Below are positions 822 through 12,986 of a DNA stretch of 27,542 nt, piece by piece. The stretch lies in the UHGV virus genome UHGV-0088497. The stretch is one strand, 5' to 3'. The position numbers and the translations under genes are program-made. Each line of letters begins with the position of its first letter. Positions within the stretch are counted from its first letter, which is position 1. The notes under the pieces are model-generated. The model had not been told where the DNA came from and searched no databases. It saw nothing but the letters and a program-made list of their open reading frames with translations. Source of the DNA: a virus.

Positions 822-994
822 GGCGTTTTACCTTTACGTTCCTGTTCCAGTTGCACCAGAGACTCTTTTAATGCTGCGAACGTAGCTTCCAGTCTGGTGG
901 CGACTTCGCGCATAAGCGGTGCATGCTTTGGTGGCAATTCAGCAACGGAGGCAAAAGCCTCAGCTACGAGTTCTTTTACCTTCATGCGGCGCAT
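818..994 (-). CDS. small hypothetical protein (58 aa), translationally coupled
   Basis: Hand translation: MRRMKVKELVAEAFASVAELPPKHAPLMREVATRLEATFAALKESLVQLEQERKGKTP. Sits between the stop of 982-1548 and the start of 567-821, with its TGA overlapping the ATG at 821. Confidence 0.35.
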   Translation of the reverse strand: MRRMKVKELVAEAFASVAELPPKHAPLMREVATRLEATFAALKESLVQLEQERKGKTP

Positions 995-1548
995 TGGCGC
1001 AGCTCCACCAGTTCGTTAAAGCGATTCATGAACAGGCCATAGGCTTGACCAGGGCGGAGAGGGATTACCTGAACGAGATCAGAGCAGGGAATACCTTCGA
1101 GAATTTCCCACTTCGAACCATCATCGATTTCCATATCACGGCGCTCGGTGGCTAACATGGTTAGATCGGCATATTTCACGACAGCAGCTTGTTCAAGTGA
1201 GATACCGAATTTAAAGCGGATAAGACCATCAACATAAGTTTCCATGCGCTGATAGTCAGGCAGCAAGGCTTTGAGCGGGGCTGGAATATCCTGGCAATAT
1301 GCCTCCGCAGCGTCGTGCATCAGCGCTTCAAAGGCGAACTCTGGCGGCACAATCTGGCTTACAAGCACAGAGTGCTGGGCCACACTGTAGAACTCTGGCA
1401 GATGCCCAGCGAATCGACAGATGTTGGAAAGCGCCGTCGCGATATCCTCAACATCGATATCGTCGATTGTGGCGGTCAGGTAGTTAAATTTTTTACCGCA
1501 TAATGTCTGAATGTAGCTCATGGTTTTCTCCATATTGGCGCGCTGCAC
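982..1548 (-). CDS. HD-domain phosphohydrolase (YfbR-like 5'-deoxynucleotidase fold)
   Basis: 188-aa ORF with HD-type metal-binding pattern (H...HD...D: AQHSVLVS, MHDAAEAY). Recognised from family memory, not searched. Confidence 0.6.
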   Translation of the reverse strand: MQRANMEKTMSYIQTLCGKKFNYLTATIDDIDVEDIATALSNICRFAGHLPEFYSVAQHSVLVSQIVPPEFAFEALMHDAAEAYCQDIPAPLKALLPDYQRMETYVDGLIRFKFGISLEQAAVVKYADLTMLATERRDMEIDDGSKWEILEGIPCSDLVQVIPLRPGQAYGLFMNRFNELVELRQCAA

Positions 1549-2483: not shown

Positions 2484-3110
2484 TTAAAGTTCGTACTGAA
2501 CGCCTTTGACAACTCCGATAATCAGGCAATTACCGTTTATTGAAATGTTTGGATAGCGTGGATTCAAGGGAACTAAGAACTTTTGAGGCCCATCGATGAC
2601 GAGTTTTTTTACAGTAGCCTCGCTTGTCCCATCAAGCCTGGCTACGACTATCTTTCCATTAAATGGCTCTGCATCAGGATCTACTATGACCGTTGCCCCT
2701 TCTGGGATTGTGGGGAGCCCATTAGGGTTTGTCATCGAATCACCTTTGACCTCCAATGCAAAGGAGCTATCACCTATCCTGAGTGATGTTTCTACCCACT
2801 TATCTACTTCACTGAAAACTTCTGCTGCTTTACATTCTGTAAACTGTCCAGCCTGAACCCAAGATATCACCGGAATCCTTCGCATCTTGGTTATCAGATT
2901 CCCTTCGAATTCAGTGCCATAAAGTATGTAATCAATTGATGTGTTGAAATACTTTGCAAGTTTCGCAAGTGACTCACCGCCTGGCACATTAATGTCTTTT
3001 TCCCAATACCCAACCGCCACATCGCTAACACCACAGAACTTACCCAGTTCTTTCTGCGAGGTTTTAGTTATGCGCCTGAGAGCTTTGATGCGCTGACCGA
3101 CAGTTTCCAT
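2484..3110 (-). CDS. cI: CI-like prophage repressor (N-terminal HTH_XRE, C-terminal S24/LexA-like autopeptidase)
   Basis: HTH segment QKELGKFCGVSDVAVGYWE; S24 hallmark GDSM (Ser) with downstream Lys (KKLV). ATG at 3110 gives METVGQRIKAL; the ORF-track start at 3143 is TTG and unlikely. Divergent from the cro-like gene. Confidence 0.85.
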   Translation of the reverse strand: METVGQRIKALRRITKTSQKELGKFCGVSDVAVGYWEKDINVPGGESLAKLAKYFNTSIDYILYGTEFEGNLITKMRRIPVISWVQAGQFTECKAAEVFSEVDKWVETSLRIGDSSFALEVKGDSMTNPNGLPTIPEGATVIVDPDAEPFNGKIVVARLDGTSEATVKKLVIDGPQKFLVPLNPRYPNISINGNCLIIGVVKGVQYEL

Positions 3111-3133
3111 TTGAACACCATAAAAAATTAAAA

Positions 3134-3205
3134 GGCTAAGCAATCTTAGTTTTTATTGACCAAAGTTAGATTGGTTATTAATATCTAATCAAACTTAGCT
3201 AAGGG
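3134..3205. promoter_or_regulatory. OR-like operator/promoter region between divergent cI and cro (PR candidate -35 TTGACC 3156-3161, -10 TAATAT 3179-3184)
   Basis: Palindromic sites CTAAGCAATCTTAG (3136-3149), CTAATCAAACTTAG (3185-3198) and CTTAGCTAAG (3194-3203); sigma70-like hexamers with 17-bp spacing for the rightward promoter. Confidence 0.6.
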
Positions 3206-3211
3206 GGCATT

Positions 3212-3439
3212 ATGACAACCGATGATATTGAAAACTACTTCGGCAGTACTGAGAAAGTTGCCGAGTTTTTTGGAATCACAAGCGAGGCCGTTTACCAGTG
3301 GCGTAATAGAACTGGTCGCCTAATCCCGAAAGGACGTGCAGCAGAAGCAGCCTATCGGACTGGGGGAAAATTGGTTTTCCATCCCGACCTTTACGAAAAG
3401 CGTAGCGATGCTTCAGTAAAACTCAAACCACAGGAATAA
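3212..3439 (+). CDS. cro: Cro-like small DNA-binding regulator
   Basis: 75-aa ORF divergent from cI, SD AGGGGG upstream of ATG 3212, HTH-like segment FGITSEAVYQWRNRTG; position-typical. Confidence 0.65.
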   Translation: MTTDDIENYFGSTEKVAEFFGITSEAVYQWRNRTGRLIPKGRAAEAAYRTGGKLVFHPDLYEKRSDASVKLKPQE

Positions 3440-3449
3440 GGGGGGAGCT

Positions 3450-4001
3450 GTGGGTAACGAACCTATTTGGAAAGTCGAACGTCAGCCAGCCTGGCTGGTG
3501 GCGGCGATAAAAAAAACGATCACCGATCTTCCTGGTGGTTATGCCGAGGCGGCGGAATGGTTGGGCGTGACAGAGAACGCATTGTTCAACCGCCTTCGTG
3601 TTGACGGCGACCAAATCTTCCCGCTGGGCTGGGCAATGGTTTTACAACGTGCTGGTGGTTCAACTCATATTGCTGATGCCGTTGCGCGCCATTCTCAGGG
3701 CGTATTTGTACCGCTGGCAGATGTCGATGATCTGGATAACGCCGATATCAACCAGCGCCTGATGGAGTCCATCGAATGGATAGGCCGTCATTCGAATTTT
3801 GTACGTAAAGCCACGGCTGATGGGGTAATTGACGCAGATGAGCGTGCTCAGATTGAGGAAAACAGCTATCAGGTTATCGCGAAGTTCCAGGAGCACGTAA
3901 CGCTTCTTTATCGAGTTTTTTGTGTCGCTGAAAAGAGTGACGCCCGCGAGTGTGCAGCTCCGGGCGCCTTGGCGAACAACTCTTCGAGTATGGAGAAATA
4001 A
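3450..4001 (+). CDS. CII-like (CP76-type) lysogeny-establishment regulatory protein
   Basis: 183-aa ORF immediately after cro, GTG start with AAGGGGGGAG upstream. Family call from memory of ~180-aa phage regulatory protein CII (CP76) proteins; not verified. Confidence 0.5.
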   Translation: MGNEPIWKVERQPAWLVAAIKKTITDLPGGYAEAAEWLGVTENALFNRLRVDGDQIFPLGWAMVLQRAGGSTHIADAVARHSQGVFVPLADVDDLDNADINQRLMESIEWIGRHSNFVRKATADGVIDADERAQIEENSYQVIAKFQEHVTLLYRVFCVAEKSDARECAAPGALANNSSSMEK

Positions 4002-4149
4002 TCCGCATGAGCAGTTTAACGGCTTTTAACCGTCTACCGCAACTCAGGATAATCCCGGTTTCGGGTACTCCGTTGTTTCGGTATGAACGCAGATTATCAA
4101 CCCGCTGGGTTCCGTGTAACCACAGTAGGGCGGTTTCAATTGTGGGGGT

Positions 4150-4344
4150 CTACAACCGGAGGGCAAAACGCCTGTGCGCGAACTTAACCGAAGGTTCAAA
4201 GACCACCGTGGAGTGCCAGTCCGTGTTATCCGCTGGGAGCCAGAAACACAGCGCGTTATCTATCTGCGTGATGGCTACCCGCACGAATGCTTCAGCCCAC
4301 TTGAGCATTTCAGGCAAAAATTCAGGGAGATAACGGACGATCAT
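4150..4344 (-). CDS. hypothetical small protein (about 65 aa) antisense in the cII-like to replication-gene gap
   Basis: Minus-strand ORF with more typical codon choice than the competing plus-strand ORF 3950-4333, which is rich in AGG/AGA/CGG/CTA codons. Weak call; the region may be non-coding. Confidence 0.2.
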   Translation of the reverse strand: MIVRYLPEFLPEMLKWAEAFVRVAITQIDNALCFWLPADNTDWHSTVVFEPSVKFAHRRFALRL

Positions 4345-5209
4345 GAGCACTAAATTAACCGGCTACGTATGGGATGGTTGCGCGGCGTCGGGCATGAAGT
4401 TGTCTAGTGTCGCGATCATGGCTCGACTCGCTGATTTCAGCAGTGATGAGGGCGTATGCTGGCCGTCAATTGAAACTATTGCTCGCCAGCTTGGCGCAGG
4501 CCCGAGCACTATCAGAACGGCAATCGCAAAGCTTGAAAAAGATGGCTGGCTCACGCGTACACAGCGCCGTAATGGTAACCGTAATGCTTCGAACGTGTAC
4601 CGCCTGAATGTGGCGAAACTTCAGGCTGCCGCATTTTCTCAACTGTCAGATTCTGACACATCAAAATCTGACGCATCAAAATTTGACACCTCAAAAACTG
4701 ACCCGTCGAAATCCGGCAAAAACGGCGGTTTTGACCCGTCAGAATCTGGCGGGGATCCGTCAGTAAAATCAAAACAAGATCCACAAGTAACTTTAAAACC
4801 CTCTTGTCCGGTTGCGGCGCAACCCGACCCTGAGGTTGTGATTACTGATCAGGCCAGACAGGTTTTGTCTTACCTGAACCAGACAACTGGTTCACGCTAC
4901 CAGGTATGCAGCACGTCGCTGGAGAACATTCGCGCCCGTCTGCGGGAACAGTTCACTGTTGATGATCTGTGCCTTGTGGTGGATTACAAAAACGCTGATT
5001 GGCGTGATAGCGAGCAGGCTCAATACCTCCGCCCGGCAACTCTGTTTATTCCAAAAAACTTCCCCGGTTACCTGCAAAGCGCGACCAAATGGTCTGCCGC
5101 TGGGCGACCTGAACGCGTTAACGGTAAATGGGCGACTAACTCAGCCAGCCGCGCAAACTTCCAAAATGTTGACTATTCACTGCCAGAAAATTCGGGGTTC
5201 CGCTCTTGA
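4343..5209 (+). CDS. replication initiation protein (N-terminal wHTH, conserved phage C-terminal domain; functional analogue of lambda O)
   Basis: 288-aa ORF after the cII-like gene; N-terminal HTH (PSIETIARQLGAGPSTIRTAIAKLEKDGWL); internal iteron repeats within the linker coding sequence, as in lambda O. Confidence 0.75.
   Translation: MSTKLTGYVWDGCAASGMKLSSVAIMARLADFSSDEGVCWPSIETIARQLGAGPSTIRTAIAKLEKDGWLTRTQRRNGNRNASNVYRLNVAKLQAAAFSQLSDSDTSKSDASKFDTSKTDPSKSGKNGGFDPSESGGDPSVKSKQDPQVTLKPSCPVAAQPDPEVVITDQARQVLSYLNQTTGSRYQVCSTSLENIRARLREQFTVDDLCLVVDYKNADWRDSEQAQYLRPATLFIPKNFPGYLQSATKWSAAGRPERVNGKWATNSASRANFQNVDYSLPENSGFRS
4643..4775 (+). repeat. iteron array (ori-like): about six degenerate copies of CTGACNCATCAAAAT at ~15-bp period, followed by an AT-rich stretch
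   Basis: Read directly: ctgacacatcaaaat / ctgacgcatcaaaat / ttgacacctcaaaaa / ctgacccgtcgaaat / ttgacccgtcagaat / ccgtcagtaaaatcaaaa; encodes the repetitive SDSDTSKSDASKFDTSKTDPSKS peptide. Confidence 0.6.
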
Positions 5210-6525
5210 TGCCAAATAAATATTGCCAGGCGCTGGCAGAACTGCGCAGTAAACCAGCTCACGAATTGAAAGAAGTTGGAGATCAGTGGAGGACACCTGA
5301 TCTGCTTTTCTGGGGGATCAACGCGTTATTTGGCCCATTAGTTCTGGACTTGTTTGCTGACGACGACAACGCGAAATGCCCGGCATGGTACACCGCCGAA
5401 GATAACGCGCTGACCCAGGACTGGTCTGAACGTCTGGCAAAACTGGGTGGTGCAGGTTATGGCAACCCACCGTATAGCCGTTCGCAGTACCACGAGAAAC
5501 AGGCGATCACTGGTATGACGCACATCATGAAGTACGCAGCAGCCCAGCGCGAGAAGGGCGGTCGCTATGTATTCCTGATAAAAGCCGCGCCAAGTGAAAC
5601 GTGGTGGCCGGAAGATGCCGATCACATTGTATTCATTCGCGGGCGCATTGGGTTCGATCTGCCTGTGTGGTTTGTACCTGCTGACGAAAAACAGAAGCCC
5701 ACCAGCGCGTTTTTTGCCGGTGCCATAGCTGTATTCGATAAGTCATGGCGTGGTGAGCGGTTCAGCTATATCAACCGTACCGAACTGGAGGCAAAAGGGC
5801 GGGCGTTTATGACTTTGGCGCAATTTGCTGCCAGCAAGTCTCAACCTGCAACTGCCACACCATCTGTAGCTGACAAGCCAGAAGCAGAGTTGCCACTTAC
5901 CCAGAAAGATATTTTTGATATCAGCGGTGTCGAGGCGTGGGCATGCGTTAGAGCTGCGTTCGGCGATAAAGAAGAATACACATTTAGTGAATCGAAGTTT
6001 GGGCATACCTGGGCGGCGGATTCTGTCGAAGCACCGGAATTCACTCAGGTATCACCATTAACGATCGACAAAGCGAAGCTGCTTATTCGTGAGAGTATTT
6101 TGTTCGGTGTGGATGAGTGGCTGTTGTCGATTGAATTCGATGACGCTGCTGCGCGCCTGGATATGTCGGAACGTATTCGTACTGTTGCCCTTGAAGCATC
6201 TGGTGAATATGGCATGAACAGTACTGATTTCATTGCAGCTATGGGAAGCCTGGATGTTTCCAGTTGGTCCAATATTCGCCAGATCCGCATGCACATCCGT
6301 GAGAAAACTAAACCAGTATCGGATCCGCTTCCCGAGTCCCGTATCTGGCCGCTGGAGGTTGGAATTGTATTCGACCAGGTAGACGGCGCTGACATGCTGG
6401 ATGAATCACAGCAGAACAAGCTGAAAGCCAACATCAATCAACTCTGGCTGGAACGAACGGCCACCAGCGAAATCATTACTGCTGCTTCTGAACTTGTTCG
6501 CAATATGCGGGGAGAGGCCGCGTGA
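5209..6525 (+). CDS. phage Dam-family N6-adenine DNA methyltransferase (NPPY motif) with a ~250-aa C-terminal extension of unknown function
   Basis: GNPPY catalytic motif in the N-terminal ~190 aa; ATG at 5209 overlaps the upstream TGA; the C-terminal region has no motif I recognise. Confidence 0.7.
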   Translation: MPNKYCQALAELRSKPAHELKEVGDQWRTPDLLFWGINALFGPLVLDLFADDDNAKCPAWYTAEDNALTQDWSERLAKLGGAGYGNPPYSRSQYHEKQAITGMTHIMKYAAAQREKGGRYVFLIKAAPSETWWPEDADHIVFIRGRIGFDLPVWFVPADEKQKPTSAFFAGAIAVFDKSWRGERFSYINRTELEAKGRAFMTLAQFAASKSQPATATPSVADKPEAELPLTQKDIFDISGVEAWACVRAAFGDKEEYTFSESKFGHTWAADSVEAPEFTQVSPLTIDKAKLLIRESILFGVDEWLLSIEFDDAAARLDMSERIRTVALEASGEYGMNSTDFIAAMGSLDVSSWSNIRQIRMHIREKTKPVSDPLPESRIWPLEVGIVFDQVDGADMLDESQQNKLKANINQLWLERTATSEIITAASELVRNMRGEAA

Positions 6526-6968
6526 AACTGATCCTGCCTTTTCCTCCGAGCGTGAACACTTACTGGCGCGCCCCTAACAAGGGGCCGCTGGCCGGTCGTC
6601 ACCTCATTAGCGCTGATGGCCGTAAATACCAGAGCACTGCCTGCGTGGCGATCATTGAGCAATTACGACGTCTCCCGAAGCCATCGACCGAATTGGCAGC
6701 GGTAGAAATCACTCTGTACCCGCCGGATGCGCGCCGCAGGGATATCGATAATTACAACAAAGCCCTGTTTGACGCGCTGACGCATGCGGGTGTCTGGGAA
6801 GATGACAGCCAGATTAAGCGCATGCTGGTGGAATGGGGACCCGTTGTGCCGAAAGGTCGGGTAGAGATAACGATCAGCAGATATGAACCGGCGGGTGCAG
6901 CCGCCTTATATGGAGAAAAGTATGAGCCAGTTAATCGTGAATGGTGTAGTAACAATGTCCAGCCGTGA
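6522..6968 (+). CDS. rusA: RusA Holliday junction resolvase
   Basis: 148-aa ORF with RusA-like N-terminus (ILPFPPSVNTYW) and acidic residues (DIDNYNK, DALTHAG...DD); GTG start overlapping the upstream stop. Confidence 0.85.
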   Translation: MKLILPFPPSVNTYWRAPNKGPLAGRHLISADGRKYQSTACVAIIEQLRRLPKPSTELAAVEITLYPPDARRRDIDNYNKALFDALTHAGVWEDDSQIKRMLVEWGPVVPKGRVEITISRYEPAGAAALYGEKYEPVNREWCSNNVQP

Positions 6969-7608
6969 TATTGCGGATCTGGTTCAGAGTAAACACAGTG
7001 ACGTGAAACGCTCGGCTGAGCGTCTTGTTGCTGCGGGAATTTTAACCGCGCCATTGGCGCAGTTCGATTTTGAGCATAACGGTAATGTGTACCAGGAGTA
7101 TCGTTTTAACAAACGCGACTCTCTGGTGATTGTTGCCAGATTATCACCTGAATTTACCGCCGCGGTCGTCGATCGCTGGCAGGAACTGGAAGAAGGACAG
7201 AGTGTCAGTGTTCCCCGCTCATTACCGGAAGCGCTTCGCCTGGCTGCTGATTTAGCCGAGCAGAAAGAGCAACTGACGATCCAGCTGGCAGCCGCGGCGC
7301 CAAAAGTGGAGTTTGTTGATCGTTATTGCTCTGCAAAAGGCTCCATGTCATTCCGGCAGGTAGCCAAATTGCTTAACGCAAAAGAAACTGAGTTTCGTCT
7401 GTTCCTTATTGAACGCAATATCCTGTATCGCCTCGGCGGCACACTTACCCCCATGGCGCAGCACATTTCCGCGGGAAGATTTGAAGTTAAGACGGGAACA
7501 TCGAGCACATCCAATCACGCATTCAGCCAGACGCGTTTCACTGCCAAGGGAGTACGCTGGATTGGTGGTTTGTGGGCTGAACATATTGCAGGGGGGCAGG
7601 CGGCGTGA
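6922..7608 (+). CDS. Rha-family phage regulatory protein / antirepressor (Rha N-terminal domain plus ANT/KilAC-like C-terminus)
   Basis: N-terminus MSQLIVNGVVTMSSRDIADLVQSKHSDVKR matches the Rha pattern; GGAG 6 nt upstream of ATG 6922; C-terminal FRQVAKLLNAKETEFRLFLIERNILYR is ANT-like. Confidence 0.7.
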   Translation: MSQLIVNGVVTMSSRDIADLVQSKHSDVKRSAERLVAAGILTAPLAQFDFEHNGNVYQEYRFNKRDSLVIVARLSPEFTAAVVDRWQELEEGQSVSVPRSLPEALRLAADLAEQKEQLTIQLAAAAPKVEFVDRYCSAKGSMSFRQVAKLLNAKETEFRLFLIERNILYRLGGTLTPMAQHISAGRFEVKTGTSSTSNHAFSQTRFTAKGVRWIGGLWAEHIAGGQAA

Positions 7609-8600
7609 GGGCTTTGTTAACTCCTGAAGTCGCCCATCGCATGGGGATTGTGTTGTTTCGTCCCGGCGCGGAACTGATGCACCTCTTTATGCGTGGTCGC
7701 GTTTTGCTCGAGCCTGAACCAGAAGAAATGGCGTCATTCAGTACAGGAGCTGTTCCCGCCGCCATTCAGCCGCTGGCTGATGATCCGGTAATGCGGCAGG
7801 TCTTCGAGAATGATCGGGTTATTCAGCGTGCCGGTGGGCTTCCTTCCCTTGAGCAATGGTTGAGTACCCGGTTTGAATGCCAGTGGCCACATTCATCGTG
7901 GCACGATAAGAACTTCACAATAATGCGGCACCCACCAGGAAGTATTCACCTGTGCTGGCATTGCGATCACACTTTGTCGGGGCAACATACCGAACAGCTT
8001 GCAGGTATAGCGGCAGGAAACCTGGTATCCTGGATTCTGGAAGTCATTCGGCGTGATTCTGGTTTTCCCGAGTCGCATATCCTGACGCTTCCGGAACTGT
8101 GCTGGTGGATGGTCAGAAACGACCTGGCTGATGTTATTCCGGAAAGCGTTGCGCACAAGGGGCTACGCCTTCCGGATGAGAAGATCCGCTCGGTCATGAG
8201 GGAAAGCGATATTGTACCTTCCGTTTCTGCAACCAGCCTCGTGCAGGAGAAGGCGAAGAAGATCATCACGCTCTCTGTTGATCCGGAGTCTCCGGAATCT
8301 TTCATGCTCAGGCCAAAGCGACGCCGCTGGATAAATGAGACTTACACCCGCTGGGTAAAAACACAACCCTGTGAGTGTTGCCGACGGCCAGCAGATGATC
8401 CGCACCATATCGTAGGGCACGGTATGGGTGGTACAGCAACAAAAGCCCATGACCTCTTCGTGATCCCTCTGTGCAGAGAGTGCCACGACGAGTTACACGC
8501 CGATGTACCGGCATTCGAGCAGAAGCATGGTACGCAGCTTGAGCTGCTACTGCGTTTTATGGATCGGGCGCTGGCGATCGGTGTAATTGCGAAAGCTTAA
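7605..8600 (+). CDS. DUF968-like phage protein with C-terminal Cys/His-rich HNH-like zinc-binding motif (putative nuclease)
   Basis: 331-aa ORF; C-terminus CECCRRPADDPHHIVGHG...CRECHDELH; GTG start overlapping the upstream stop. Family names from memory. Confidence 0.55.
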   Translation: MRALLTPEVAHRMGIVLFRPGAELMHLFMRGRVLLEPEPEEMASFSTGAVPAAIQPLADDPVMRQVFENDRVIQRAGGLPSLEQWLSTRFECQWPHSSWHDKNFTIMRHPPGSIHLCWHCDHTLSGQHTEQLAGIAAGNLVSWILEVIRRDSGFPESHILTLPELCWWMVRNDLADVIPESVAHKGLRLPDEKIRSVMRESDIVPSVSATSLVQEKAKKIITLSVDPESPESFMLRPKRRRWINETYTRWVKTQPCECCRRPADDPHHIVGHGMGGTATKAHDLFVIPLCRECHDELHADVPAFEQKHGTQLELLLRFMDRALAIGVIAKA

Positions 8601-8617
8601 GTGTATGGAGAAAAGTG

Positions 8618-8983
8618 ATGCGTGATATTCAAATGTTACTTGAAAGATGGGGCGGGTGGGCTGCCAGTGATAGTTCTGGCGTGGACTATTCTCCTATAGC
8701 TGCAGGATTTAAGGGGCTGTTGCCGCAAACAGGTAGATCCCGACCGTCATGTACTGACGATGATGCGCTGATCATCGAAGGTTGCCTGGCGCGATTGAAA
8801 AGCCGGAAACCATATGAGCATTCACTGCTTGTAGCTCACTATCTGTATGGAATATCCAAGAGGAAGATCGCAAAAGTGCGTAAAAAAGATGAGAAATTGA
8901 TACGGATCGAGATACAGATGGCTGAGGGGTTTATTGATGGCTGCCTTTCAATGTTGGATGTAAGGCTTGATATGGATGAATAA
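8618..8983 (+). CDS. late-gene antitermination protein Q (Phage_antitermQ family)
   Basis: N-terminal RDIQMLLERWGGWAA and central AAGFKGLL...DDDALIIEGCLARLK...LLVAHYLYGISKRKIAK resemble Q-like antiterminators of Salmonella/E. coli lambdoid prophages; GGAG upstream. Confidence 0.7.
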   Translation: MRDIQMLLERWGGWAASDSSGVDYSPIAAGFKGLLPQTGRSRPSCTDDDALIIEGCLARLKSRKPYEHSLLVAHYLYGISKRKIAKVRKKDEKLIRIEIQMAEGFIDGCLSMLDVRLDMDE

Positions 8984-8989
8984 CTAATT

Positions 8990-9023
8990 GTTAACATTAT
9001 GCCCCGTGTAGGGGCCTAATGTT
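8990..9023. terminator. long imperfect hairpin (AACATTATGCCCC-GTGTA-GGGGCCTAATGTT) between convergent Q and the minus-strand cassette; tR'-like or bidirectional terminator candidate
   Basis: Inverted repeat read directly; no strong T-run, so function is uncertain. Confidence 0.35.
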
Positions 9024-9471
9024 ACAAGTGAGGGAAAATTCTACGCAGCACTAACCAACACCTACCAAATGTGCAAAGTGAAAGGAGCAGCGAAGACAAT
9101 CCTAACAGGAGAAATAAAAAATCAATTGGTTGAGCAAAGACCTTAACATCCTCTGGTAAGAACATAGCGATCAGTGGAAACAAGCAGGCCAAAATCAGCG
9201 TCAACCCTGTTGATAGCAAGCGATTTATCAATGTTGGTAATATATTATTCCTTTTGAGGGCGTTAATGGCCCCATCTTTGTCACTATCTGCGCTACTGAA
9301 TATAGATATAGCGGCGAGAACAAACCCAAAAAGAATTCCTGAAATTGTCGAAAGCACACCTGCTGTAGTTAACACATCAGCATGTTTCATAGGCTTAAAC
9401 AGTTTTGTCGCTGCATAAGTAATCAGAACTAAGAGGACCACTTTCCAAAAAAGAGTTAGAAATTCTCTCAT
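9022..9471 (-). CDS. small 4-TM inner-membrane protein (149 aa), second gene of two-gene accessory cassette (RexB-like architecture)
   Basis: Four hydrophobic helices; strong SD (AAGGGAGGA) upstream of ATG 9471, 18 nt after the stop of the upstream gene; AT-rich sequence. Confidence 0.65.
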   Translation of the reverse strand: MREFLTLFWKVVLLVLITYAATKLFKPMKHADVLTTAGVLSTISGILFGFVLAAISIFSSADSDKDGAINALKRNNILPTLINRLLSTGLTLILACLFPLIAMFLPEDVKVFAQPIDFLFLLLGLSSLLLSLCTFGRCWLVLRRIFPHL

Positions 9472-9489: not shown

Positions 9490-10437
9490 TTACTGGTTTT
9501 TTTTTGCAAGCTCATACTGTGCAAGGTAATTTGCATTATCAATTTTAGCAGATATCATCGCCGTCCTGATATCAGAATCAGAAGGATAGCCGCTTTTTAC
9601 TACTATAGTTTTCGAGCCTATGAGCACTTGATCAAGTAGGCTTTTTGGCGCTGTATCTGATGGTTCTGTTACATCAATTTTCTTGATGTTTAGCCCGCCA
9701 GAGCCTTTGGGGAATAGTTCAAGCAGTTCTTTAATAGCATCAGTAACTGATGATTTAAGATAGTTGAAGCCTGCTCTTTTGGGACGAATGCGACCGCGCA
9801 TGTTAAGTCTCAGGTGTGAACCGCCCATACCAACCACCATATCAATGATGTCATTAGTAAGGTCATTCTTAATCTGATAATTAGCTTTATTGAAATTTCT
9901 TGGCGCTGCGACAGTGAGGTCAAAACTGCGAAGGATGTTCCCATCTTCAAGAAGTTCCTTCATGCTCTCGTGCTTCCAGATAGCCTCGAATGTAACATTT
10001 TTCATTTGTGTCTTGTTGTACAGAATGAAAGATAAATCATTCACTTTGGGGCCTAAATGGTTGAGAGTCATTGCTAGTAAATCTGTTTCAAAGTAGTAAA
10101 TAAAATATGTCCGTTCTACTACTGAATCTTTATCGCTAAGCGGTATCGTTCGCTCGCTTCCTGTGGTGCCATCCTCGATAAAAGGTAAGAGACAATCACG
10201 CCTCCACGAGACATACCCAAAATAACTCTGCTGCTTATCATCCTTTTCAAGAATGACAAGTTTTAAACCGCGGTTTTGGGTTTCTGCTGTCACCACTAAA
10301 GGGAATGTAACCGGAGTCGTGTTTGTCATTTGCTCGAATGCAAGTTTCGCTGTAGACAGACCGTCTTTTTTACTTCCATTTCCAGTGAAAAAGCCAACTC
10401 TTACGCGACGAGTTTTCTTCTTATCTTCTGTAGTCAT
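9490..10437 (-). CDS. soluble 315-aa protein of unknown function, first gene of two-gene accessory cassette (RexA-like position)
   Basis: Long AT-rich ORF with no catalytic motif I recognise. ORF-track start at 10443 is TTG; ATG at 10437 is more likely. Confidence 0.65.
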   Translation of the reverse strand: MTTEDKKKTRRVRVGFFTGNGSKKDGLSTAKLAFEQMTNTTPVTFPLVVTAETQNRGLKLVILEKDDKQQSYFGYVSWRRDCLLPFIEDGTTGSERTIPLSDKDSVVERTYFIYYFETDLLAMTLNHLGPKVNDLSFILYNKTQMKNVTFEAIWKHESMKELLEDGNILRSFDLTVAAPRNFNKANYQIKNDLTNDIIDMVVGMGGSHLRLNMRGRIRPKRAGFNYLKSSVTDAIKELLELFPKGSGGLNIKKIDVTEPSDTAPKSLLDQVLIGSKTIVVKSGYPSDSDIRTAMISAKIDNANYLAQYELAKKNQ

Positions 10438-10675
10438 TATCAATCCGATGAGAATTTCTGATAAACGGACGAAAAATACTATAAATAATTGAGAAGATCA
10501 TTAGCGCGGTCCGCAAAAAGTGATGTAACGTGTTAAGAGTGGTTACTTGGTCACATTGCTTAATCATCAAATTCAGCTTCTGAGTTTTGTTTTAACGATG
10601 CTTGATTGTGCGACTTATCTCTCTGAAACTTATCTTCTTTTCCTTGACTATGAATTTTCTATCTAAGGAGGTTCT

Positions 10676-11933: not shown

Positions 11934-12986
11934 ATGAAAAATACTGTAAAAATAAACAGGGTTGAGTTAATCAACGCTGATAGCCTGCATTACGTCGCCA
12001 CCCTCCCGGATAACTCTATTGATCTGATTGTTACGGATCCTCCGTACTTCAAAGTGAAGCCTAACGGCTGGGACAACCAATGGAAGGGGGACGAGGACTA
12101 CTTACGCTGGCTTGATAGCTGCCTGGCTGAGTATGCTCGCGTTCTTAAACCTGCTGGCAGCATCTACCTGTTTTGCGGTCACCGACTGGCCTCAGACATA
12201 GAGATTATGATGCGTACCCGGTTCAAAGTTTTGAATCACATCATTTGGGCAAAACCATCGGGCCGCTGGAATGGATGTAACAAAGAAAGCCTGCGTGCGT
12301 ACTTTCCATCTACGGAACGGATTTTGTTTGCTGAGCACTATCTTGGGCCGTACACAGGTAAAGAGGATGTTTACGAAAGGAAAAGCACAGAGCTAAAGCA
12401 GCACATTATGACGCCGCTGATTGATTACTTCCGTAATGCCCGTGAATCACTGGGAGTCAGCTCGAAAGAAATAGCTGAGGCAACCGGAAAGAAAAACATG
12501 GCGTCACACTGGTTTGGTGCAAGCCAATGGCAACTACCAAATGAAGTGGACTATAGAAAATTGCAGGAACTGTTCACGCGGATCGCTATCGATAAGCACA
12601 TTCAGCAGAAGCTTGAACATCCTCACCACCAGCTGGTAGCCACCTATCAGTCATTAAACCGCAAGTATTCAGAATTGCTGGAGGAATACAAAACCCTCCG
12701 GCGCTGCTTCTCTGTTTCCGCTTTTGTTCCGTATACCGACGTATGGACGCATAAGCCTGTTCAGTTTTATCCAGGCAAACATCCATGCGAAAAACCTGCC
12801 GACATGCTGAAGCAGATCATTAGCGCCAGCAGCAGACCGGGGGATATCGTTGCCGATTTCTTTATGGGCTCTGGTTCAACTGTGAAAGCTGCAATAGAAC
12901 TTGGTCGTCGGGCGATCGGCGTAGAACTGGAAACCGACAGGTTTATTCAGACCACCGAAGAGGTGGAAAAACTCAACAAAACATAA
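11934..12986 (+). CDS. beta-class DNA methyltransferase (motif IV DPPY before motif I FxGxG), N6-adenine or N4-cytosine specific, no adjacent restriction gene seen
   Basis: VTDPPYF near the N-terminus and DFFMGSGST near the C-terminus give the beta-class motif order. Confidence 0.8.
   Translation: MKNTVKINRVELINADSLHYVATLPDNSIDLIVTDPPYFKVKPNGWDNQWKGDEDYLRWLDSCLAEYARVLKPAGSIYLFCGHRLASDIEIMMRTRFKVLNHIIWAKPSGRWNGCNKESLRAYFPSTERILFAEHYLGPYTGKEDVYERKSTELKQHIMTPLIDYFRNARESLGVSSKEIAEATGKKNMASHWFGASQWQLPNEVDYRKLQELFTRIAIDKHIQQKLEHPHHQLVATYQSLNRKYSELLEEYKTLRRCFSVSAFVPYTDVWTHKPVQFYPGKHPCEKPADMLKQIISASSRPGDIVADFFMGSGSTVKAAIELGRRAIGVELETDRFIQTTEEVEKLNKT

What the first reader, a model, noticed from the sequence alone, without database searches (positions are those of the whole stretch)
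5209..6525. Dam-family N6-adenine methyltransferase fused to a ~250-aa C-terminal domain of unknown function at the position of lambda P
The NPPY-containing methyltransferase domain occupies roughly the first 190 aa; the rest of the 439-aa protein has no motif I recognise. The gene directly follows the O-like initiator, overlapping its stop codon, where lambdoid phages usually encode a helicase loader (P or DnaC-like), and no helicase-loader-like gene is evident elsewhere in the replication block.
Basis: partly seen in the sequence, partly recalled or inferred. Interest (0 to 1): 0.5.

Follow-up and report, generated by a model that had tools for sequence, protein, structure and literature searches.

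The report
Phage adenine methyltransferase with rare add-on module
This prophage gene encodes an ordinary phage DNA adenine methyltransferase that carries a rare, uncharacterised 150-residue add-on module, which related phages attach to a different DNA-modification protein; nothing indicates that it replaces the missing lambda-P-type helicase loader.

Summary
The ORF is real: 5209-6525(+), 438 aa from the ATG, which overlaps the stop codon of the O-like initiator gene by one base. Residues 15-198 are a phage N6-adenine DNA methyltransferase, well above the curated cut-offs of TIGR01712 and PF05869, with NPPY at 86-89.

The "~250-aa unknown domain" is three units:
- **Sub-a (aa ~227-275):** small and very conserved.
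- **Sub-b (aa ~276-370):** a helical bundle. Sub-a and sub-b together form a module I call MID.
- **Tail (aa 377-438):** three helices, standard in the ~292-aa homologues (ST64B Sb44, phiNP mtase).

MID is rare: 39 of 5426 complete E. coli genomes, against 2134 with the methyltransferase domain. It matches no Pfam or PHROG family, and PDB and viral-structure searches gave only weak, generic helical matches. It is under purifying selection. It also ends ParB-like proteins in the same genome slot of related phages.

No helicase or loader gene is present. The same is true of relatives whose methyltransferase lacks MID, or lacks both MID and the tail, so the absence belongs to this replication module. 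The C-terminus shows no similarity to lambda P.

Verdict: observation confirmed, helicase-loader reading not supported. This is a new domain variant of a known enzyme, of modest interest.

The parts
5209..6525 (+). Methyltransferase gene, 438 aa plus stop. Architecture: MTase domain, linker, MID (sub-a and sub-b), tail.
   Evidence: Annotated 'phage N-6-adenine-methyltransferase' in E. coli orthologues of 95-96% nt identity.
5260..5802 (+). Catalytic N6-adenine methyltransferase domain (aa 18-198). NPPY at aa 86-89 corresponds to nt 5464-5475.
   Evidence: PF05869 E 2e-43; TIGR01712 206.9 bits against cut-off 97; NPPY position.
5887..6033 (+). MID sub-a (aa 227-275). A small beta-alpha-alpha-beta-alpha unit and the most conserved part of the extension. 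Invariant residues: S239, G240, W244, A245, C246, A249, F251, S262, K263, H266, W268, A269, D271.
6034..6318 (+). MID sub-b (aa 276-370), a helical bundle of five helices.
6337..6522 (+). Conserved C-terminal tail (aa 377-438), three helices. It is shared with the ~292-aa homologues that lack MID.
   Evidence: Matches phrog_111 positions 283-343 and phrog_16025. Of 108 homologues with both anchor motifs, 106 have a 40-51 aa linker instead of MID. AF2 pLDDT 82-90.
4343..5209 (+). O-like replication initiator gene (winged helix plus Phg_2220_C C-terminal domain). Its stop codon overlaps the methyltransferase start.
   Evidence: Weak DnaD_N and 'DnaD-like helicase loader' PHROG hits cover both halves.
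4646..4750 (.). Iteron-like direct and inverted repeats inside the initiator gene; a candidate origin.
   Evidence: families D1, D2 and pairs I2, I6. The layout resembles the lambda ori iterons inside O.
6522..6968 (+). Downstream RusA-family resolvase gene. Its start overlaps the methyltransferase stop.
   Evidence: PF05866.

Best explanation
The gene encodes an orphan phage N6-adenine DNA methyltransferase, of the kind that sits after the initiator gene in e14/CPS-53/ST64B-type lambdoid early regions. It is probably translated by coupling to the initiator gene and methylates phage (and host) DNA.

Its C-terminus is modular. A 62-aa three-helix tail is common in the Salmonella, Citrobacter and E. 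coli branch of the family. Between the catalytic domain and the tail sits a rare ~150-aa cassette (MID), made of an acidic, highly conserved small unit (sub-a) and a helical bundle (sub-b).

MID is portable. In related phages it ends ParB-like (DGHHR-motif) proteins encoded in the same genome slot. One of these is encoded next to a DpdA-like transglycosylase gene.

My reading is that MID is an accessory adaptor or oligomerisation module for DNA-modification enzymes. It would tether them to a partner, either a protein or DNA, or pair them up. It is not a replication protein.

Helicase recruitment in this phage group is most likely done by the initiator itself, through its DnaD-like Phg_2220_C domain acting on host DnaB/DnaC, as many plasmid initiators do.

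**Shown:** the identity of the methyltransferase domain; the three-unit architecture; the rarity, portability and purifying selection of MID; the absence of loader genes in MID-plus and MID-minus relatives alike.
**Inferred:** the methylation target; the adaptor role of MID; helicase loading by the initiator.
For: - **Methyltransferase identity:**
- **Modular structure:** the AF2 model shows three separately folded units with disordered joints and pTM 0.43.
- **Tail without MID:** ST64B Sb44, phiNP mtase and 106 of 108 homologues.
- **Neither tail nor MID:** the 217-aa E. coli form, in the same gene order.
- **Rarity of MID:** 39 genomes against 2134 with the methyltransferase domain.
- **MID on ParB-like proteins:** P0126, P0127, P0130 and Pantoea phage AH07 gp48 carry a ParB HTH domain, with MID at the C-terminus and no tail.
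- **AH07 neighbour gene:** it hits phrog_887, queuine tRNA-ribosyltransferase. In the Dpd system, the partner of DpdA is a ParB-like ATPase (PMC10164549).
- **Selection:** dN/dS is 0.04-0.18 in every unit.
- **No loader gene in any relative examined:**
- **Initiator:** weak DnaD_N and DnaD-like PHROG matches.
- **Precedent:** a small phage MT-A70 methyltransferase needs a separate winged-helix subunit for substrate choice (PMC10810198).
Against: - No partner or activity of MID is known, and fold searches gave only generic helical matches.
- All three C-terminal units are acidic (pI 4.3-4.9). That is unusual for DNA-binding domains and weakens the DNA-tethering version.
- The co-occurrence with DNA-modification enzymes rests on two enzyme types and a handful of loci.
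- Every MID-bearing gene seen lies just downstream of the initiator gene: directly after it in the methyltransferase forms of the window, L005, Eeyore (L007) and L008, and after one or two small intervening genes elsewhere (a PerC-like gene in L004; PerC plus a 40-aa ORF before the ParB-like genes of AH07, L009 and L013/14). A replication-linked role is therefore not excluded.
- Helicase loading by the initiator alone is inferred and was not tested.
Confidence: 0.6

Rival explanations
1. The C-terminal extension (MID, the tail or both) is a non-homologous functional replacement of lambda P. It would bind the O-like initiator and host DnaB and deliver the helicase to the origin, fused here to a methyltransferase.
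Confidence: 0.06
2. MID, the tail or both act as a C-terminal target-recognition or DNA-binding region, in the position where gamma-class methyltransferases such as M.TaqI carry theirs. They would change the sequence specificity or processivity of an otherwise minimal enzyme.
Confidence: 0.2
3. MID is an independent counter-defence or host-takeover domain, for example an acidic DNA-mimic or decoy, that is carried on DNA-modification enzymes because both serve to evade restriction.
For: The composition is acidic (pI 4.3-4.9). The distribution is patchy and cassette-like among close relatives. It is attached to two unrelated anti-restriction-type enzymes, a methyltransferase and a ParB-like protein next to a DpdA-like gene.
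Against: No similarity to Ocr, ArdA or any other known protein was found. No confirmed stand-alone copy exists. Four of the apparent stand-alone genes proved to be N-gap, in-frame-stop or split-gene artefacts (P0009, P0005, P0128, P0132), P0124 lies on an odd scaffold, and the others were not checked.
Confidence: 0.12

Closest known systems
Phage N-6-adenine-methyltransferase of ST64B (Sb44, 297 aa) and Citrobacter phage phiNP (mtase, 293 aa); TIGR01712 / PF05869
   Same: The catalytic domain is ~75-86% identical, and the same 60-aa C-terminal tail is present. The genome slot is the same: downstream of the O-like initiator and upstream of RusA or the Q region.
   Different: These proteins join the catalytic domain to the tail with a 40-51 aa linker. 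The window protein has the ~150-aa MID cassette there instead.
The 217-aa E. coli prophage form (CPS-53 yfdM-type locus: O-like, YfdN/PerC, methyltransferase, LexA-like, RusA)
   Same: It has the same catalytic domain and the same early-region layout, and no helicase loader.
   Different: It has no tail and no MID. A PerC-family gene lies between the initiator and the methyltransferase.
ParB-like protein gp48 of Pantoea phage AH07 (440 aa), and P0126, P0127, P0130
   Same: They carry the whole MID (sub-a and sub-b) at about 40% identity overall; individual members range from 34 to 42%. They occupy the same slot after an O-like/Phg_2220_C initiator.
   Different: The N-terminal enzyme is a ParB/Srx-type domain (DGHHR motif) plus ParB HTH, not a methyltransferase. 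MID ends the protein with no tail. In AH07 the next gene is a DpdA-like transglycosylase.
Lambda P (helicase loader)
   Same: Only the gene position immediately after the initiator gene, with overlapping stop and start codons.
M.EcoPA8orf6770P with PNB-2 (Stx prophage MT-A70 methyltransferase plus a winged-helix specificity subunit, PMC10810198)
   Same: A small phage methyltransferase without a recognition domain of its own relies on an accessory nucleic-acid-binding polypeptide. This is a functional analogy for what a fused accessory module could do.
   Different: It belongs to a different methyltransferase family (DPPW, MT-A70). The accessory is a separate protein and is unrelated in sequence.

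Membership tests
Phage N6-adenine DNA methyltransferase (TIGR01712 / Pfam PF05869 'Dam') | Profile score above the curated cut-off | tested here: met
   TIGR01712: 206.9 bits against 97.05, aa 15-196. PF05869: 148.4 bits against 28.1, aa 18-198.
Phage N6-adenine DNA methyltransferase (TIGR01712 / Pfam PF05869 'Dam') | Catalytic (D/N)PP(Y/F/W) motif | tested here: met
   NPPY at aa 86-89. It is conserved in all aligned full-length homologues.
Phage N6-adenine DNA methyltransferase (TIGR01712 / Pfam PF05869 'Dam') | Methylation of adenine in DNA, and the target motif (GATC is reported for some family members, from my own knowledge) | not testable with these tools
   Needs methylome sequencing of a strain that expresses the gene. 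GATC is not depleted in the window: 132 sites against 110 +/- 9 expected.
Lambda P / DnaC / DnaI-type helicase loaders | Sequence or profile similarity to a known loader family | tested here: not met
   No Pfam, PHROG or NCBIfam loader family matches aa 199-438. hhalign of the C-terminal profile against lambda P gives probability 0.1%.
Lambda P / DnaC / DnaI-type helicase loaders | Fold similarity to a solved loader | tested here: not met
Lambda P / DnaC / DnaI-type helicase loaders | Conserved wherever the cognate initiator is present, as an essential replication function should be | tested here: not met
   MID is absent from phiNP, ST64B and L012. MID and tail are both absent from the common E. 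coli form. All of these have the same initiator type. MID is in 39 genomes against 2134 with the methyltransferase domain.
Lambda P / DnaC / DnaI-type helicase loaders | Binds the replicative helicase DnaB and the initiator | not testable with these tools
   Needs pull-down or two-hybrid assays, or complex structure prediction.
MerR / excisionase-type winged helix-turn-helix (for sub-a) | Fold match and a basic DNA-contacting surface | tested here: inconclusive
Intein or other self-splicing insertion (for MID) | Nucleophile at the N-terminal junction, His-Asn plus Cys/Ser/Thr at the C-terminal junction, and presence only as an insertion | tested here: not met
   MID starts around KPEAELPL and ends at PLPE|S. 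There is no terminal His-Asn. In ParB-like proteins MID is C-terminal, with nothing after it.

The most novel reading that the evidence does not exclude
MID is a dedicated coupling module. It would dock DNA-modification enzymes (the Dam-like methyltransferase here, a ParB/DpdB-like NTPase elsewhere) onto the phage initiator complex or the host replisome, so that nascent phage DNA is modified as it is made. In the strongest form of this idea it would also help recruit DnaB in a phage group that encodes no loader.
Probability: 0.12. Interest if true: 0.65.

Novelty: new variant of a known kind. Interest (0 to 1): 0.3.

Why it matters
The enzyme itself is routine and already annotated in RefSeq, including in E. 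coli Nissle 1917. The new element is a compact, strongly conserved module with no family assignment. It moves between two unrelated DNA-modification enzymes that occupy the same slot of lambdoid early regions.

If MID proves to be a targeting or coupling device, it would show how phages direct protective DNA modification. It would also give a handle on a large prophage group whose replication module has an initiator but no helicase loader.

If it is merely an oligomerisation or stabilising add-on, the finding is a small annotation refinement.

Tried and rejected
- **Stand-alone MID genes.** Apparent separate genes turned up in the searches. Four of those examined were artefacts. P0009 and P0005 arise from runs of N in metagenome scaffolds. 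P0128 follows an in-frame TAG inside sub-a, seen in two samples. P0132 lies behind a split ParB-like gene. P0134, a MID-containing fragment, does too. P0124 lies on the opposite strand of an odd scaffold. Other small hits (P0129, P0138, P0140) were not checked. No convincing case of separate genes remains.
- **YfdN/PerC (ST64B Sb43).** This gene sits between initiator and methyltransferase in relatives. It is not similar to the extension (BLASTP E 10).
- **The 108-aa LexA-family gene.** It follows the short E. coli methyltransferase and is not related to MID or the tail (hhalign probability 0.05%).
- **Lambda P against the C-terminal profile.** No relation.
- **PDB sequence searches.** The best hit is a HisE pyrophosphatase at E 0.14, and the acidic catalytic motifs of that fold are not conserved here.
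- **Viral structure library (BFVD).** Best E 0.73.
- **afdb50 fold library.** Not available.
- **M.EcoGII and Hia5-type non-specific methyltransferases.** Checked in the literature; they belong to other families.
- **The Stx-prophage rRNA methyltransferase.** It is MT-A70 (DPPW), not this family.
- **Intein hypothesis.** Rejected on junction residues and on the C-terminal position of MID in ParB-like proteins.
- **Full-length structure model.** Packing of the tail or MID against the catalytic domain is therefore unknown.

Full report
**1. The observation**

The window has an ORF at 5209-6525 on the plus strand. From the ATG at 5209 it is 438 aa. Homologues begin MPNKYC or MxxNKYC, so the ATG is the likely start. 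This ATG shares one base with the TGA of the preceding gene (TGATG), a typical arrangement for translational coupling.

- Pfam PF05869 (Dam) matches aa 18-198, E 2e-43.
- NCBIfam TIGR01712, 'phage N-6-adenine-methyltransferase', matches aa 15-196 at 206.9 bits against a cut-off of 97.
- NPPY is at aa 86-89.
- Nothing in Pfam matches the remaining 240 residues, even at E<=10 across 13 family members.

**2. Surroundings**

The region is a lambdoid early-right operon:

| Coordinates | Gene |
|---|---|
| 2484-3143 (-) | cI-like repressor |
| 3212-3439 | Cro-like |
| 3450-4001 | CII/YmfL-like |
| 4174-4353 | DUF4222 |
| 4343-5209 | initiator |
| 5209-6525 | methyltransferase |
| 6522-6968 | RusA |
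| 6883-7608 | Ant |
| 7605-8600 | DUF968/HNH |
| 8615-8983 | Q |

The initiator has an N-terminal winged helix (HTH_36) and the Phg_2220_C domain. It hits PHROGs called 'replication initiation O-like' and 'primosomal protein'. It also hits DnaD_N and two 'DnaD-like helicase loader' PHROGs more weakly. It is not similar to lambda O by BLASTP. Like lambda O, it contains iteron-like repeats inside the gene, at 4646-4750.

No helicase or loader gene was found among the window ORFs scanned. None is annotated in the PGAP annotation of a 95%-identical E. coli prophage that runs from integrase to terminase.

**3. Anatomy of the C-terminal 240 residues**

Comparison with homologues shows that the region is not one domain.

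- **The tail.** ST64B Sb44 (297 aa) and phiNP mtase (293 aa) have the catalytic domain, a 40-51 aa linker, and then a ~60-aa tail (SRIWPLEVG...QQNKLKANINQLWLER...). This tail is ~70-90% identical to aa 377-438 of the window protein. Among the hits to the C-terminal region, 108 carried both anchor motifs. Of these, 106 had the short linker and 2 had the long insertion. The tail corresponds to the end of phrog_111 and to phrog_16025.
- **The insertion.** It spans aa ~223-376 and I call it MID.
- **Predicted structure.** An AlphaFold2 model of aa 215-438, built on an 18-sequence alignment, has mean pLDDT 77.8 and pTM 0.43. It shows three separately folded units joined by low-confidence linkers:
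  - sub-a (aa 229-270, beta-alpha-alpha-beta-alpha, pLDDT 70-78);
  - sub-b (aa 283-366, five helices, pLDDT ~90);
  - the tail (aa 382-434, three helices, pLDDT 82-90).
- **Conservation.** Sub-a is the most conserved part. It has 15 invariant positions across methyltransferase-type and ParB-type proteins, including W244-A-C246 and H266-x-W-A-x-D271.
- **Selection.** All units are under purifying selection, with dN/dS 0.04-0.18. Sub-a is as constrained as the catalytic domain.
- **Charge.** All three C-terminal units are acidic, pI 4.3-4.9.

**4. Distribution**

The methyltransferase domain is present in 2134 of 5426 complete E. coli genomes. MID DNA is present in 39, including Nissle 1917. 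It is also in the phages Eeyore, Flotzy and Phi06_2987.

The commonest E. coli form is 217 aa, with neither MID nor tail. It sits in the order O-like, YfdN/PerC, methyltransferase, LexA-like, RusA, KilA-N, DUF968, Q.

An exhaustive profile search of 1.84 billion representative proteins with sub-b found only 15 hits. Some of these are 349-446-aa proteins with a ParB HTH domain and an N-terminal DGHHR motif. In them the whole MID (sub-a and sub-b) forms the C-terminus, with no tail.

One such protein is gp48 of Pantoea phage AH07. It lies after an O-like/Phg_2220_C gene, a PerC-like gene and a 40-aa ORF. It is followed by a gene that hits phrog_887, queuine tRNA-ribosyltransferase, at E 8e-97. 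In the bacterial Dpd system, the transglycosylase DpdA needs a ParB-like ATPase, DpdB (PMC10164549). The AH07 pair therefore looks like a DNA-modification pair. This last step is inference.

Apparent stand-alone MID genes did not hold up. Four of those examined were artefacts of scaffold gaps, an in-frame TAG or split genes. One more lies on an odd scaffold, and a few small hits were not checked.

**5. Tests of the helicase-loader idea**

- **Sequence.** No loader family matches. hhalign of the C-terminal profile against lambda P gives probability 0.1%.
- **Comparative.** Close relatives with the same initiator and gene order lack MID (phiNP, ST64B), or lack both MID and tail (the 217-aa E. 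coli form). None of them encodes a loader.

The missing loader is thus a property of the whole e14/CPS-53/ST64B-type replication module, not something that this extension makes up for. The most economical explanation is that the initiator, through its DnaD-like C-terminal domain, recruits host DnaB/DnaC directly, as several plasmid initiators are known to do. This is inference from established knowledge and was not tested here.

**6. What MID might do**

In ParB-like proteins, MID occupies the place where ParB proteins normally carry their dimerisation domain (established knowledge).

Taken together, I favour an adaptor or oligomerisation module that serves DNA-modification enzymes. The alternatives are a recognition or processivity domain, or an independent acidic counter-defence domain. 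A replication-coupling role is not excluded, because every MID-bearing gene seen lies just downstream of the initiator gene: directly after it in several methyltransferase forms, and after one or two small genes in L004 and in the ParB-like forms.

**7. Comparison with known systems, and novelty**

The enzyme is a member of a known and widely annotated family. The tail is a known but unnamed feature of one branch of that family. MID has no family assignment in Pfam, PHROGs or NCBIfam, and the structure libraries searched gave only weak, generic matches. It is a cassette shared by two enzyme types.

This makes the finding a new domain variant of a known kind. It is of modest interest unless MID proves to couple DNA modification to replication.

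**8. Limits**

- No full-length model was made, so contacts between the extension and the catalytic domain are unknown.
- The afdb50 fold library was unavailable.
- The methylation target, the binding partners and the route of helicase loading all need experiments.

Noticed in passing
window 11934-12986 (+): A second DNA methyltransferase gene lies downstream of Q. It is 350 aa and belongs to a different family (PF01555 N6_N4_Mtase, E 3.5e-44; phrog_67). The prophage therefore carries two unrelated amino-methyltransferases.
   Followed up: partly
window 4646-4750: Iteron-like 15-19-nt direct and inverted repeats (TGACCCGTCGAAATCCGGC-like) lie inside the O-like initiator gene, in the stretch that encodes its low-complexity Ser/Asp/Lys linker. 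This is a likely replication origin, laid out as in lambda O.
   Followed up: partly
L006 3125-4447 and 4444-5199 (Pantoea phage AH07 gp48, gp49): A ParB-like protein (DGHHR motif, ParB HTH) ends in the same MID module. The next gene is a 251-aa protein that hits phrog_887 (queuine tRNA-ribosyltransferase, E 8e-97). This may be a phage DpdB/DpdA-like 7-deazaguanine DNA-modification pair.
   Followed up: partly
L010 5053-6276 and L011 4197-5420: In two independent samples a methyltransferase-MID gene carries an in-frame TAG inside sub-a (GDK*EYTF). Gene callers therefore split it into a 283-aa 'Dam' and a 91-aa ORF. This is either a pseudogene in a decayed prophage or stop-codon read-through.
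   Followed up: partly
L017 4001-5471, L018 4001-5471 (E. coli O157:H7 and O25b:H4 prophages): The commonest E. coli form of this methyltransferase is 217 aa, without tail or MID. It is preceded by a PerC-family gene (yfdN) and followed by a 108-aa LexA-family winged-helix gene. The winged-helix protein is unrelated to MID or the tail by hhalign. Whether it is an accessory subunit of the methyltransferase is open.
   Followed up: partly
window 9022-9471 (-) and 9490-10443 (-): Two minus-strand ORFs (149 and 317 aa) lie between Q and the late genes. They match only PHROGs of unknown function (phrog_8552, phrog_7651), and the one scanned against Pfam (9490-10443) had no hit. They look like a moron-type insertion.
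   Followed up: no
window 982-1548 (-): A 188-aa ORF in the leftward operon matches phrog_318, 'deoxyribonucleoside 5' monophosphate phosphatase' (E 3e-94). It has no Pfam hit.
   Followed up: no
whole window: GATC occurs 132 times against 110 +/- 9 expected from shuffles. The Dam target is therefore not avoided and is slightly enriched.
   Followed up: no
window 3950-4333 (+) and 4174-4353 (+): Two overlapping ORFs in different frames both have PHROG matches: phrog_1170 (unknown function) and phrog_1343 (DUF4222). PGAP annotates only the DUF4222 gene in the E. coli relative. Whether the 127-aa ORF is a real gene was not resolved.
   Followed up: no
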